64,000 nt of DNA, taken from the IMG/VR virus record IMGVR_UViG_3300025809_001850; one strand, written 5' to 3'. Made by a program: the position numbers and the translations under genes. The notes under the pieces are model-generated. The model saw only the letters and a program-made list of their open reading frames with translations. It had not been told where the DNA came from and searched no databases. This document shows, piece after piece, positions 37,125 to 40,210 of the stretch (position 1 is its first letter; the number at the start of each line of letters is the position of its first letter). Source of the stretch: a virus. Taxonomy: Duplodnaviria > Caudoviricetes.

Positions 37125-37517
37125 ATGTTCACACAACTAATTGCTAAGTTACTAAAGAAAAAAATATACAAATCTCAAATCACGATGGTCGGAGATGACT
37201 TTGTTGCTGAGTACCATAACGATTCGTTATTAGAGTCGTTAAAGTGGACATTACATGGAATACACGAAGCAAATGCGACTCAACCTGAAGACCATCCTAA
37301 GAAGGGTTCTGCTACCAACGGTATTTTCGGTCAGATTTCTGAATTTAAAGTATTGACTGTAACGAAATCTTCGATTGGAGTGTGTGGTTACTCTAAACCA
37401 AATAACGAAGATATTATGTTTATGACCGAGCAAATGGTATATATACCCGAGAAAATTCTTACAACTTTAAAAAAACAAGAAGCAACAATGTCTGATCTTG
37501 ATACTATGCTTAAATAA
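37125..37517 (+). CDS. hypothetical protein
   Basis: 130 aa; ATATTTAT 4 nt upstream. Confidence 0.65.
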   Translation: MFTQLIAKLLKKKIYKSQITMVGDDFVAEYHNDSLLESLKWTLHGIHEANATQPEDHPKKGSATNGIFGQISEFKVLTVTKSSIGVCGYSKPNNEDIMFMTEQMVYIPEKILTTLKKQEATMSDLDTMLK

Positions 37518-38853
37518 TTCCATGTGCAATCGCGGCATTTGCTACTCGTAGAAATCCACCTACATTTGCACCAAGAGTGTAATCACCCTCTGTTCCGTAT
37601 TTTCTTGCATTACGTAAACAAGATGCATGAATTTGTTTCATTATCTCTCTGAGTTTATTATCTACTTGTGCCATACTCCACTTTTCCCATCCTGCGTTCT
37701 GACGCATCTCAAGTGCTGATACTGCTACTCCACCTGCGTTTACTGCTTTACTTGGAGCAACTACCACCAATTTGTCGTTAAAGAGTTTTATTGCGTCTTC
37801 TGTGCAAGGCATATTAGCTGCTTCTGCTATAAACTTACAATCGTTATCAATAAGCATTTCCGCATCTTTTTCTGTGATTTCGTTTTGGATGGCACTTGGA
37901 ATTGCTATATCACACCGAACTTCCCAAGGTTTTTTACCTTTAATAAAATCTACTCCGAATTTATCTGCGAAAGGTTTTACGATATCGGCATTACTTTCAC
38001 GCAAAGTTTCCATATAAGGAATCATACTTTTCTTGATTCCATTTTTCATATGTATATATCCATCTGGTCCTGATATAGTAACCACTTTAGCACCCAGTTC
38101 TACTGCTTTTTGTACAACACCAAATGATACTTGACCAAATCCACTTACAGTAATCACCTTTCCCTTGATGTCTGTATGATGATTTTTAAGCATTTCTTCT
38201 GTGAAATATATTGTTCCATAACCAGTTGCTTCTTTTCTTCCGTGAATTCCACCCCAAGCAGGTGCTTTACCTGTAATAAGACCTGGTTCATATTTGCTAT
38301 ATAGTGCCTTATACTGACCGAACAAATACCCTATCTCTTTGTACCCAACCCCAATGTCACCTGCAGGTACATCCGTCTTGTGACCAAGGTGGTCGTGGAG
38401 TTTAGTCATAAACGACTGACAAAACCTCATAATCTCTAAATCGGTTTTTCCGTTTGGATCAAAGTCACTTCCTCCTTTTGCTCCTCCAATCTGAAGACCG
38501 GTTAAACTATTTTTGAAAGTTTGTTCAAATCCAAGAAACTTCATTGTTCCCAAATTAACACTTGGATGAAACCGCAATCCACCTTTATATGGTCCCAATA
38601 CACTATTAAATTGAACACGATATCCACGATTAACATGAACATTTCCAATTTCATCAATCCAAGGTACACTGAATATAATTTGCTTTTCTGGTTCTGCCAA
38701 ACGTTCAAGTAAATTTACTTTCTTGAATTCAGAATGTTTGTCTATAACAGAATGAAGACTTGAATATACTTCGTTTACTGCTTGAATGAATGTTGGTTCA
38801 GAGTGGTTTTTTGCTTCAACCTTTTTTATTACATCATCTACATATTTGCTCAT
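37510..38853 (-). CDS. gdh: glutamate dehydrogenase, NAD-type signature
   Basis: [30 protein letters not shown]; GFGQV and ISGPDG, like Clostridium symbiosum NAD-GDH; ATG at 38853. Confidence 0.92.
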   Translation of the reverse strand: MSKYVDDVIKKVEAKNHSEPTFIQAVNEVYSSLHSVIDKHSEFKKVNLLERLAEPEKQIIFSVPWIDEIGNVHVNRGYRVQFNSVLGPYKGGLRFHPSVNLGTMKFLGFEQTFKNSLTGLQIGGAKGGSDFDPNGKTDLEIMRFCQSFMTKLHDHLGHKTDVPAGDIGVGYKEIGYLFGQYKALYSKYEPGLITGKAPAWGGIHGRKEATGYGTIYFTEEMLKNHHTDIKGKVITVSGFGQVSFGVVQKAVELGAKVVTISGPDGYIHMKNGIKKSMIPYMETLRESNADIVKPFADKFGVDFIKGKKPWEVRCDIAIPSAIQNEITEKDAEMLIDNDCKFIAEAANMPCTEDAIKLFNDKLVVVAPSKAVNAGGVAVSALEMRQNAGWEKWSMAQVDNKLREIMKQIHASCLRNARKYGTEGDYTLGANVGGFLRVANAAIAHGII

Positions 38854-38872
38854 AAAAATATATATGGATTTG

Positions 38873-40210
38873 TTACACAATTCCTTGAGAAATCATTGCA
38901 TTTGCAACTTTTTGAAATCCTACAATATTAGCACCCATAACATAATTACCTTTATCGTTATAGGTTTCTGATGCTTCATATGATTTGTCGTGGATATTCT
39001 TCATGATATTTTGAAGTTTTTTATCCACTTTATCAAAACTCCAACTGTCACGCAAACTATTTTGTGACATTTCCAATCCACTAACTGCCACACCTCCTGC
39101 ATTGGATGCTTTGCCTGGACCAAACGGAATATTGTTTTTATGAAATACTTCAACTGCGTCTGGTGTGCAGGGCATATTTGCTCCTTCTGCAACGGCAATT
39201 AAACCATCTCTTACGAGGAGTTCTGCGTGTTTTCTTTCTAGTTCATTTTGCGTTGCACACGGAAGTGCTATATCACATTTGATATCCCAAATGCTTCCTG
39301 TGTTGCTGAATATAGAGTCTTTATCGTATTTTACATATTCTTCTATACGTAAACGATTAGTTTCCTTGACGTCTTTCATTGCATCAAGTTTAAGACCAGT
39401 GGATGAATATACATATCCGTTTGAATCACTCATTGCTACAACAATACCACCGAGTTCTATAGTTTTTTCCATTGCATATATTGCTACATTACCTGATCCT
39501 GATATAATAACTTTCTTTTTATCAAAATCTGTATTAAGTTTTCCGAGCATTTCTTTCATAAAGTAACAAGTTCCGTATCCAGTTGCTTCTGTTCTTACTA
39601 AACTACCACCAAAATCAAGACCTTTACCCGTGAGAACTCCCACCACTTCGTTTTGTAAACGTTTGTAATGACCATATAAAAATCCAACTTCTCTTGCACC
39701 GACTCCAATATCACCGGCAGGAACATCGGTGAATTGACCTATATGCTTGCTTAATTCAACCATAAACGATTGACAAAACCTCATCACTTCATTGTCACTT
39801 TTTCCTTTTGGATCAAAGTCACTTCCACCTTTACCACCACCCATAGGAAGTCCGGTAAGAGAATTCTTGAATGTTTGTTCAAATCCAAGGAACTTAATGA
39901 TACTGAGATTAACACTTGGATGAAAACGTAATCCACCTTTATACGGACCGATTGCACTATTAAATTGAACACGATATCCTCTATTTACATGAACTTTGTT
40001 GCTGTCATCCACCCAAGGAATTCTGAATGTAATTACTCGTTCTGGTTCAATTAACCTTTCAAGTAAACCCAAATCTTGGTATGTAGAATCGTTATCTACA
40101 ACCGGTGACAACGTTTCAAGCACTTCTTTTACTGCTTGTCTAAATTCAAGTTGATGTCTATCCCTATCATCAACCAAATCGACCACACTCTCCGTATATG
40201 ATTTATTCAT
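38873..40210 (-). CDS. gdhA: NADP-specific glutamate dehydrogenase
   Basis: [35 protein letters not shown] (NADP-type loop). Confidence 0.95.

What the first reader, a model, noticed from the sequence alone, without database searches (positions are those of the whole stretch)
37510..40210. Tandem NADP-type and NAD-type glutamate dehydrogenases: a possible phage transhydrogenase cycle
Seen: two full-length co-oriented GDHs, both with intact catalytic Lys/Asp motifs. 38873 has GSGNVA/SDS; 37510 has GFGQV/SGPDG and a C-terminal domain resembling Clostridium symbiosum NAD-GDH. Known: these loops correlate with NADP(H) versus NAD(H) preference. Inference: run in opposite directions, the pair interconverts NADH and NADPH without net glutamate change (NADPH is needed for Fcl, DHFR and dNTP supply). 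Alternatively it gives switchable N assimilation versus glutamate catabolism, or forms hetero-hexamers.
Basis: partly seen in the sequence, partly recalled or inferred. Interest (0 to 1): 0.7.

Follow-up and report, generated by a model that had tools for sequence, protein, structure and literature searches.

The report
Phage pair of glutamate dehydrogenases
A widespread, very large marine T4-like phage carries two intact glutamate dehydrogenase genes side by side, one with the sequence marks of an NADP-using enzyme and one of an NAD-using enzyme; cells have this pairing too, it looks new for a phage, and it would not make NADPH in the way first proposed.

Summary
Two co-oriented class-I (about 50 kDa) glutamate dehydrogenases lie 19 nt apart on the minus strand. 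GDH-B is at 38873-40210. GDH-A is at 37510-38853, and its true start is the ATG at 38853. They are 50% identical and both keep every catalytic and glutamate-binding residue.

GDH-A carries F/G-P-D, the residues shown by mutagenesis to exclude NADPH in Clostridium symbiosum NAD-GDH. GDH-B carries the S/D-S pattern and two of the three basic residues of E. coli NADP-GDH.

A tree and an AU test (p = 0.009) place them in different bacterial subfamilies, so they were acquired separately and are not a duplication. Both are under strong purifying selection (dN/dS 0.04-0.13). The B-then-A pair recurs in at least 15 related marine contigs. Contigs from RNA libraries of three studies span the junction.

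One relative has only A in this slot, and another has only a divergent B-type gene. The coupling is therefore not obligatory.

The known GDH1/GDH2 transhydrogenase cycle runs from NADPH to NADH, the opposite of the NADPH-supply idea. Most likely the pair is an anabolic/catabolic set at the glutamate/2-oxoglutarate/ammonium node, as in Bacteroides. Cofactor use has not been measured. First readers of this scan noted the same pair in two other, apparently related genomes.

The parts
38873..40210 (-). GDH-B: class-I glutamate dehydrogenase, 445 aa, predicted NADP(H) type; first gene of the pair.
   Evidence: Pfam ELFV_dehydrog_N and ELFV_dehydrog. Best solved relative is C. glutamicum NADP-GDH 5ijz (609 bits), then E. 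coli 4fcc (532 bits). Signature S239, A243, D262, S263, K282, R288. dN/dS 0.04-0.13.
37510..38853 (-). GDH-A: class-I glutamate dehydrogenase, 447 aa, predicted NAD(H) type; second gene of the pair.
   Evidence: Pfam. Scores 514 bits against C. symbiosum NAD-GDH 1bgv, with shared F238, G261, P262 and D263. Every close relative carries F/GPD. dN/dS 0.04-0.12.
38854..38872 (-). 19-nt spacer between the GDH-B stop and the GDH-A ATG. It has no SD-like motif and no promoter or terminator match.
   Evidence: Sequence. The consensus scan found nothing above chance. The spacer is 3-19 nt in relatives. RNA-library contigs bridge it in runs X15, X17 and X18.
40211..40306 (.). Divergent intergenic region upstream of GDH-B. 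An ATATTTAT motif on the minus strand at 40215-40222 ends 4 nt before the GDH-B ATG.
   Evidence: In L012 the same motif sits directly before the single GDH-A gene.
40307..40591 (+). Conserved 94-aa ORF of unknown function; the upstream boundary of the GDH slot.
   Evidence: No Pfam or PHROG hit. Present next to the GDH slot in all relatives: 87% identity in L176 and 61% in L012.
37125..37517 (+). Conserved convergent 130-aa ORF of unknown function. It overlaps the GDH-A 3' end by 8 nt and is the downstream boundary of the slot.
   Evidence: No Pfam or PHROG hit. A 122-144-aa ORF lies at the same place in L012, L013, L016, L019, L177 and L178.

Best explanation
These are two functional, separately acquired class-I glutamate dehydrogenases, probably transcribed together from one unit (B then A). 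GDH-B is an E. coli/C. glutamicum-type enzyme that should use NADP(H). GDH-A is a Clostridium symbiosum-type enzyme that should use NAD(H). Together they let the phage act on the glutamate <-> 2-oxoglutarate + NH4+ node through both pyridine-nucleotide pools, as the GdhA/GdhB pair does in Bacteroides and GDH1/GDH2 does in yeast. The NAD enzyme would mainly deaminate glutamate, giving 2-oxoglutarate, NH4+ and NADH for energy. That fits the protease, peptidase and beta-oxidation genes noted for this phage. The NADP enzyme would mainly re-fix ammonium into glutamate for nucleotide and amino-acid synthesis. Because both are made together, some cycling, which amounts to transfer from NADPH to NADH, is a likely side effect. 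What is shown: gene integrity, sequence determinants, separate origins, selection, and conservation of the pair. What is inferred: cofactor preference, co-transcription, and the direction of flux in vivo.
For: Both proteins are complete, with all catalytic and glutamate-binding residues. In GDH-A, F239, G262, P263 and D264 are identical to the residues whose mutation lets C. symbiosum GDH use NADPH. GDH-A also has Asp at the position of Cs N290, which contacts the ribose 2'-OH. GDH-B has S, D and S at P2, P7 and P8, plus K282 and R288. Every solved NADP-GDH scores higher with B than with A (5ijz 609 vs 520 bits; 4fcc 532 vs 442). The solved NAD-GDH 1bgv scores higher with A (514 vs 482). All 116 A-like database hits carry F/SGP and all 119 B-like hits carry S/SDS. 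The two phage clades sit in different bacterial subfamilies (support 100 each). Forcing them into one clade is rejected (AU p = 0.009). dN/dS is 0.04-0.13 for both genes at dS of 0.4 to above 1. The B-then-A pair with a 3-19-nt gap occurs in at least 15 related contigs from different samples. Member counts of the A and B clusters are about equal, roughly 300 each. RNA-library contigs from three studies cover both genes and bridge the junction. The phage setting is confirmed by rIIA, rIIB, a T4-type DNA polymerase and a clamp loader. Precedents: B. fragilis has an assimilatory NAD(P)H enzyme and a catabolic NADH enzyme (PMC4539542). A Rikenellaceae MAG has the same two signatures 2.5 kb apart (L129).
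Against: No enzyme assay exists, and GDH coenzyme specificity is known to defy fingerprint rules (PMC3157743, PMC12364357). The Bacteroides S/DS-type enzyme is reported as dual NAD(P)H-using, so GDH-B may not be strict. GDH-B lacks the middle basic residue (E. coli R289 aligns with N285). Cells that own both enzymes regulate them separately to avoid futile cycling. Here the 19-nt gap, with no promoter or terminator signal, suggests simultaneous expression, which fits a cycle or hetero-oligomer better than a switch. The host and its own GDH content are unknown. No glutamine synthetase was found in four partial related contigs, so no wider nitrogen pathway is visible.
Confidence: 0.55

Rival explanations
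1. Transhydrogenase cycle. The two enzymes run in opposite directions and move reducing equivalents between NADPH and NADH with no net change in glutamate. The first reader's version has the net flow from NADH to NADPH, to feed Fcl, DHFR and dNTP synthesis.
For: The predicted cofactor types are opposite. The tight tandem arrangement and RNA-library contigs across the junction suggest both proteins are present together. Such a cycle is real in yeast that over-expresses GDH1 and GDH2 (PMC9684072). A review notes that GDH can occasionally be an NADPH supplier (PMC4518329).
Against: The cycle has no energy input and the standard free energy is about 1 kJ/mol, so direction follows the pool ratios. 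In the documented case it converts NADPH to NADH 'irreversibly'. In typical aerobic bacteria NADPH/NADP+ far exceeds NADH/NAD+ (textbook values, from memory). This means the cycle would drain the NADPH that the phage needs. Relatives keep only A (L012) or only a B-type gene (L176) in the same slot. A and B have discordant divergence between the same genome pairs, so they recombine independently.
Confidence: 0.17
2. Hetero-hexamer. A and B co-assemble into mixed hexamers with new kinetic or regulatory properties, as Thermus thermophilus GdhA/GdhB or the plant GDH isoenzymes do.
For: The genes are tandem and probably co-expressed. The Thermus pair appears as hetero-complex 3aoe chains A and E among the solved relatives, and PMC12364357 describes it as a hetero-hexamer. 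The N-terminal oligomerisation domain is the most conserved part between A and B.
Against: Both subunits keep full catalytic sets. I recall the Thermus GdhA subunit being described as regulatory, but I did not check that here. Single-gene variants exist. The two genes were acquired separately from different subfamilies and recombine independently. No binding test was run.
Confidence: 0.1
3. Parallel or redundant catabolism. Both enzymes work in the same direction, chiefly glutamate oxidation during phage-driven proteolysis, and yield NADH and NADPH side by side. Alternatively, they do not differ much in cofactor use at all.
For: NADP-GDH is reported as an occasional NADPH source. The window also encodes a ClpP-like protease. 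An aminopeptidase and a beta-oxidation operon are reported for this phage in earlier unchecked notes. CsGDH discriminates only about 9-fold at pH 6. Bacteroides GdhA is dual-specific.
Against: Oxidative deamination with NADP+ is disfavoured when NADPH/NADP+ is high (general thermodynamics, not computed here). The strict conservation of two different signatures across all clade members argues that the cofactor difference matters.
Confidence: 0.15

Closest known systems
Clostridium symbiosum NAD+-specific glutamate dehydrogenase (PDB 1bgv/1hrd)
   Same: It aligns end to end with GDH-A (514 bits). The F238, G261, P262 and D263 coenzyme-pocket residues are the same, as are the GGAKGG, DPNGK and VVAPSKAVNAGGV stretches and the catalytic residues.
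   Different: GDH-A has Ser at P6 (Cs A242) and Asp at Cs N290. It lies on a long phage-specific branch, only about 55-60% identical to any bacterial enzyme. Its cofactor use has not been measured.
C. glutamicum (5ijz) and E. coli (4fcc/3sbo) NADP-specific GdhA
   Same: GDH-B scores 609 and 532 bits against them. It shares GSGNVA and SDS(S/N)G, and has K282 and R288 at the E. coli K286 and R292 positions.
   Different: E. coli R289 aligns with N285 in GDH-B. The window's copy has N264 where most phage relatives and E. coli have Ser. It is encoded by a phage.
Bacteroides fragilis / B. thetaiotaomicron GdhA (NAD(P)H, assimilatory) plus GdhB (NADH, catabolic, peptide-induced)
   Same: One organism holds two GDHs with different cofactor use and opposite physiological roles (PMC4539542). 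That GdhA is a family-I enzyme comes from a title in that paper's reference list; GdhB's class was not checked here. A Rikenellaceae MAG carries the same two signatures, FAGPD-RNDI and SADSN, 2.5 kb apart (L129).
   Different: The cellular genes are separately regulated and not abutting. The phage genes are 3-19 nt apart. On the tree they do not branch with Bacteroidota.
Saccharomyces cerevisiae GDH1/GDH2 trans-hydrogenase cycle
   Same: An NADP-GDH and an NAD-GDH expressed together cycle glutamate and 2-oxoglutarate and transfer hydride between pools (PMC9684072).
   Different: The yeast cycle runs from NADPH to NADH. To my knowledge GDH2 belongs to a different, larger size class, but I did not check this. 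The function was shown by genetics in yeast and is only conjecture here.
Thermus thermophilus GdhA/GdhB hetero-hexamer (PDB 3aoe)
   Same: Two GDH subunits that co-assemble into a hetero-hexamer. I recall the genes being adjacent, but did not check this.
   Different: They belong to a different GDH subfamily (120-184 bits against the phage proteins). I recall one Thermus subunit being mainly regulatory (not checked here). Both phage proteins look fully catalytic.
Single gdhA genes reported as viral auxiliary metabolic genes and in giant viruses
   Same: GDH occurs in viral genomes: 75 IMG/VR loci, a complete 36-kb phage with terminal repeats (L010/G005), a virome AMG report (PMC13552757) and NCLDV reports (PMC9270025).
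   Different: Those are single genes. Among the 75 IMG/VR loci only this lineage has a tandem pair of two cofactor types.

Membership tests
Class-I (about 50 kDa, hexameric) ELFV glutamate dehydrogenase | An N-terminal dimerisation/substrate domain plus a Rossmann coenzyme domain, about 450 aa in all. | tested here: met
   PF02812 and PF00208 match full length in both proteins. Both give 480-609 bits against solved class-I GDHs.
Class-I (about 50 kDa, hexameric) ELFV glutamate dehydrogenase | Catalytic Lys (Cs K125 / Ec K128) and Asp (Cs D165 / Ec D168), and the glutamate-specific Lys (Cs K89) and Ser (Cs S380). | tested here: met
   All are present in both proteins and invariant in the 15-sequence alignment A1.
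Class-I (about 50 kDa, hexameric) ELFV glutamate dehydrogenase | Homo-hexameric assembly and measurable GDH activity. | not testable with these tools
   Needs expressed protein.
NAD+-specific C. symbiosum-type GDH (tested on GDH-A) | Phe at P2 (F238), Gly at P7 (G261), Pro at P8 (P262) and Asp263, which narrow the 2'-phosphate pocket. | tested here: met
   GDH-A has F239, G262, P263 and D264. These are conserved in all 24 clade members. Mutagenesis basis: PMC3157743.
NAD+-specific C. symbiosum-type GDH (tested on GDH-A) | Asn290, which hydrogen-bonds the adenine-ribose 2'-OH. | tested here: inconclusive
   GDH-A has Asp at the aligned position. Asp could still bind the 2'-OH and repel a phosphate, but this is an inference.
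NAD+-specific C. symbiosum-type GDH (tested on GDH-A) | Measured preference for NADH over NADPH. | not testable with these tools
   Needs kinetics.
NADP+-specific E. coli/C. glutamicum-type GdhA (tested on GDH-B) | The GSGNVA turn (Ser at P2, Ala at P6), Asp at P7 and Ser at P8. | tested here: met
   GDH-B has S239, A243, D262 and S263. These are conserved in all clade members. Basis: PMC12364357.
NADP+-specific E. coli/C. glutamicum-type GdhA (tested on GDH-B) | The basic cluster K286/R289/R292 for the 2'-phosphate. | tested here: inconclusive
   K282 and R288 align with K286 and R292. R289 aligns with N285, though R286 is adjacent and a 3-residue gap lies nearby.
NADP+-specific E. coli/C. 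glutamicum-type GdhA (tested on GDH-B) | Measured preference for NADPH. | not testable with these tools
   Needs kinetics. The related Bacteroides enzyme is reported as dual-specific.
GDH-based transhydrogenase cycle (yeast GDH1/GDH2 type) | Two GDHs of opposite cofactor specificity present at the same time. | tested here: inconclusive
   The cofactor types are predicted only. Co-presence is suggested by the 19-nt gap and by RNA-library contigs that bridge the junction, but contigs cannot prove a single transcript or exclude DNA carry-over.
   The documented direction is NADPH to NADH and the standard free energy is about 1 kJ/mol.
Hetero-hexameric GDH (Thermus GdhA/GdhB type) | Adjacent genes whose products co-assemble, one subunit being mainly regulatory. 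| tested here: not met
   Adjacency is met, but both subunits keep full catalytic sets and are under equal constraint. Single-gene variants exist. Physical association was not tested.

The most novel reading that the evidence does not exclude
The co-transcribed NADP-type/NAD-type pair works as a phage-encoded, energy-independent transhydrogenase. It would be a redox valve that uses glutamate/2-oxoglutarate cycling to equalise the NADPH and NADH pools of the infected cell, and the first such module described for a virus. Its direction would depend on the infected cell's redox state. That could include NADPH formation if beta-oxidation floods the cell with NADH while dNTP and sugar-nucleotide synthesis drain NADPH.
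Probability: 0.15. Interest if true: 0.7.

Novelty: new member of a known kind. Interest (0 to 1): 0.4.

Why it matters
Glutamate dehydrogenase sits where carbon, nitrogen and redox metabolism meet. This is a widespread marine phage lineage, seen in contigs from many samples. It keeps two cofactor-specialised copies under strong selection. That suggests the phage takes direct control of glutamate, 2-oxoglutarate and ammonium, and possibly of the NADH/NADPH balance, during infection of a nutrient-poor host. Natural variants with A only, B only, or both offer a ready comparison. The enzymes should be easy to express, so cofactor use and any coupled hydride transfer can be tested directly. The enzymes themselves are ordinary, and the two-enzyme arrangement is well known in cells.

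Tried and rejected
- **In-phage duplication.** Rejected by the tree and the AU test.
- **One copy degenerate.** Rejected by the intact residues and dN/dS. The only exception is one relative, L177, whose A copy has an in-frame TGA at codon 433. This may be a sequencing error.
- **En-bloc capture of the pair from Bacteroidota.** Bacteroidota MAGs do hold both types close together (L129, L172, L097). On the tree, however, phage A sits next to the Bacillota-type clade, and phage B sits next to an unnamed clade whose members the sources label Clostridia. Both are on long branches, so no donor can be named.
- **Promoter/terminator scan of 37000-40700.** It found 16 promoter-like sites against 16.2 expected and 0 terminators, so it is uninformative.
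- **Megablast of 36000-44000 against GenBank phages.** No match. The tblastn hits there are at most 52% identical, and most are unannotated fragments.
- **Glutamine synthetase (PF00120).** No match in four partial related viral contigs or in L010. These are fragments, so this says little.
- **No whole genome is held for this window**, so NAD kinase, PntAB, GOGAT and similar genes could not be surveyed.
- **Paper searches.** 'Jumbo phage' plus 'glutamate dehydrogenase', and 'transhydrogenase' plus the two GDH names, found nothing.
- **RNA-library contigs.** The four runs gave next to no cover over dnaJ (36094-37257) while the GDH genes were covered. The runs were chosen for holding the GDH stretch and are contigs, so neither expression level nor absence of DNA carry-over can be concluded.
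- **Complex prediction and structure prediction were not run.** An A+B pass would follow from likeness to solved homo-hexamers and would not separate homo- from hetero-oligomers. At 55-65% identity to solved structures, a model would add nothing to the alignment.
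Full report
**What is there.**
- Two long minus-strand ORFs fill 37510-40210.
- GDH-B, the upstream gene, is 38873-40210 (445 aa).
- The ORF finder extends the downstream gene to a TTG at 38880. The start conserved in all relatives is the ATG at 38853 (447 aa, MSKYVDD...). This leaves a 19-nt AT-rich spacer after the GDH-B stop.
- Both proteins match the two Pfam domains of Glu/Leu/Phe/Val dehydrogenases over their full length. They are 50% identical to each other.
- Both keep the catalytic Lys and Asp and the residues that bind the glutamate carboxylates: E. 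coli K92, K116, K128, D168 and N348, and the Ser equivalent to C. symbiosum S380.

**Setting.**
- The neighbours are a ClpP-like protease, IF-1, DnaJ, a PD-(D/E)XK nuclease and DnaK.
- Farther out are rIIA, rIIB, a T4-type DNA polymerase, a clamp loader and DNA methyltransferases. The DNA is that of a T4-like phage.
- Near-identical DNA is held by marine metagenomes of many studies.
- The GC content of the two genes (0.36) matches their neighbours, so they are long-resident genes.
- No whole genome is held for the window.

**Cofactor type.** The determinants come from mutagenesis of C. symbiosum NAD-GDH.
- F238 and P262 narrow the pocket for the 2'-phosphate. F238S, P262S and D263K raise catalytic efficiency with NADPH 100-170-fold. 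P7 is Gly261, and N290 binds the ribose 2'-OH (PMC3157743).
- For E. coli NADP-GDH the marks are Ser at P2, Asp at P7, Ser at P8 and the basic cluster K286/R289/R292 (PMC12364357).
- GDH-A has F239, G262, P263 and D264, with Asp at the N290 position. It also shares GGAKGG, DPNGK and VVAPSKAVNAGGV with the clostridial enzyme.
- GDH-B has S239, A243, D262, S263, K282 and R288. Only the middle basic residue is missing.
- The solved structures give the same signal both ways. NADP enzymes score about 90 bits higher with B than with A. The NAD enzyme 1bgv scores 32 bits higher with A.
- Among 240 database relatives, 116 of the hits carry F/SGP and 119 carry S/SDS; every readable hit from the GDH-A search is F/SGP and every one from the GDH-B search is S/SDS.
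- This is a strong sequence-level prediction, but still a prediction. The GDH literature itself warns that fingerprints can mislead. The Bacteroides S/DS-type enzyme is reported as NAD(P)H dual.

**Origin.**
- In a maximum-likelihood tree the phage A sequences form one clade (support 100) inside F/GPD-type bacterial enzymes. The phage B sequences form another (support 100) inside the S/DS type.
- The best tree that holds them together is 59 log-likelihood units worse (AU p = 0.009).
- Each phage protein is closer to bacterial enzymes (A about 60%, B 66-71%) than to its partner (50%).
- The pair is therefore two captures, not a duplication followed by a cofactor switch.
- Both sit on long stems, and no donor lineage can be named.

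**Conservation and selection.**
- The B-then-A arrangement, with a 3-19-nt spacer between the same flanking genes, is found in IMG/VR contigs of 61-170 kb (L001-L004, L006).
- It is also found in ENA, JGI and Logan contigs (L013-L020, L177-L179).
- Pairwise dN/dS is 0.04-0.13 for both genes at synonymous divergences of 0.4 to above 1.
- The numbers of database members in the two phage clades are about equal, roughly 300 each.
- Divergence of A and B is discordant between the same genome pairs. For L001 versus L004, dS is 0.40 for B and 1.23 for A. The two genes therefore recombine independently.

**Variants of the slot.**
- L012 is a more distant relative (flanking ORFs 61-83% identical). It has only GDH-A between the same flanking genes, 52 nt after the conserved 94-aa ORF.
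- L176 has flanking genes 87-92% identical to the window. It has a single B-type enzyme only 70% identical to GDH-B. That gene is followed by a gene for a signal-peptide protein, not by GDH-A.
- In L177 the A copy has an in-frame TGA 15 codons before the end.
- The slot is thus a place where GDH genes are exchanged. Each enzyme can evidently be kept alone, although the pair is by far the commonest state.

**Expression.**
- No promoter- or terminator-like site separates the genes beyond chance.
- Contigs assembled from RNA libraries of three studies cover both genes and bridge the junction: X15 at 38778-39479, X17 at 38612-38956 and X18 at 38746-38918.
- This fits a single transcription unit. 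Contigs cannot, however, prove one transcript, its strand, or the absence of DNA in the library.

**How it most likely works.**
- In cells that own both types, the NADP(H) enzyme assimilates ammonium and the NAD(H) enzyme degrades glutamate. In B. fragilis the latter is induced by peptides (PMC4539542).
- A Rikenellaceae MAG carries the very same two signatures 2.5 kb apart. Other bacteria also have neighbouring GDH pairs.
- I therefore read the phage pair as an anabolic/catabolic set at the glutamate/2-oxoglutarate/ammonium node, brought under phage control.
- Since the two appear to be made together, some cycling is probable.
- That cycle is known from yeast, where GDH1 plus GDH2 convert NADPH into NADH (PMC9684072).
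- The hydride transfer itself is close to equilibrium (1.0 +/- 0.7 kJ/mol; PMC4518329). Direction therefore follows the pool ratios, which in aerobic bacteria favour NADPH to NADH (textbook values, from memory).
- Making NADPH from NADH by this route would need an unusual redox state.
- Hetero-hexamers (precedent: Thermus GdhA/GdhB, PDB 3aoe) and parallel glutamate oxidation yielding both NADH and NADPH remain possible.

**Comparison with what is known.**
- Viral GDH genes are not new. An alignment-based scan found 75 IMG/VR loci, including giant-virus MAGs, phage contigs of 100-210 kb with a different GDH subfamily, and a complete 36-kb phage with one B-type gene.
- Virome and giant-virus papers list gdhA.
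- Among those 75 loci only this lineage has a tandem pair. L027 shows an inverted duplicate that looks like an assembly artefact.
- I found no paper describing a phage with two GDHs of different cofactor types.
- First readers of this scan noted the same pair in two other, apparently related genomes. They also noted similar paralogue pairs in cellular genomes.

**Verdict.** This is a real, conserved and probably expressed pair of ordinary enzymes in an unusual owner. The cofactor reading is well supported by sequence. The transhydrogenase-for-NADPH mechanism is not supported. The decisive tests are simple enzyme assays.

Noticed in passing
window 9861, 11100, 37113, 40215, 48378, 62363 and other sites: ATATTTAT occurs 21 times against 11.2 expected; none of 100 shuffles reached 21. 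At least seven copies lie within about 20 nt upstream of a start codon on the same strand, including GDH-B, the 130-aa ORF at 37125 and the 810-aa gene at 48375. In L012 the motif sits before the lone GDH-A. It may be a promoter or a start-site element.
   Followed up: partly
window, all 64 ORFs of 100 aa or more with an ATG start: Only 10 of 64 genes have an SD-like 4-mer at -20 to -5, against a background of 9%. Upstream regions are A/T-rich. This hints at a host with little Shine-Dalgarno use.
   Followed up: partly
L012:9949-10001; L176:855-2838; L177:3830-3835: The GDH slot varies among relatives. L012 has A only. L176 has a divergent B-type gene only, followed by a signal-peptide protein. 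In L177 the A copy carries an in-frame TGA at codon 433.
   Followed up: partly
L001-L004, L013 versus window, genes A and B: Synonymous divergence of the two adjacent genes is discordant between the same genome pairs (for example L001-L004: B 0.40, A 1.23). This indicates recombination inside the 2.7-kb locus.
   Followed up: partly
contigs behind P0018, P0126, P0132, P0136, P0140 (L013 lies at 425929-447272 of a 569543-bp contig): The same GDH proteins lie on ENA contigs of 495-577 kb. CheckV rates 161-170-kb IMG/VR contigs of this lineage as 80-84% complete, and IMG/VR classes three of them as proviruses. The true genome size, concatemers or mis-assembly are unresolved.
   Followed up: no
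L012:5804-6670, L013:4365-5198; window 43573-43837: Relatives carry a 2OG-Fe(II) oxygenase gene next to dnaK, a consumer of the GDH product 2-oxoglutarate. The window's phage has no such gene at that place.
   Followed up: no
L107:1567-4326 (Actinomycetota MAG); L129:3995-9141 (Rikenellaceae MAG); L172 (Gaetbulibacter aquiaggeris): Bacterial genomes with two class-I GDH genes in tandem or within 2.5-3.3 kb. L129 has exactly the phage's two signatures. L107 pairs a Y/DEY-type gene with an S/DSS-type gene.
   Followed up: partly
L027:4001-6748: Two identical GDH copies in inverted orientation 78 nt apart on a 13-kb IMG/VR contig. This is probably a fold-back assembly artefact.
   Followed up: no
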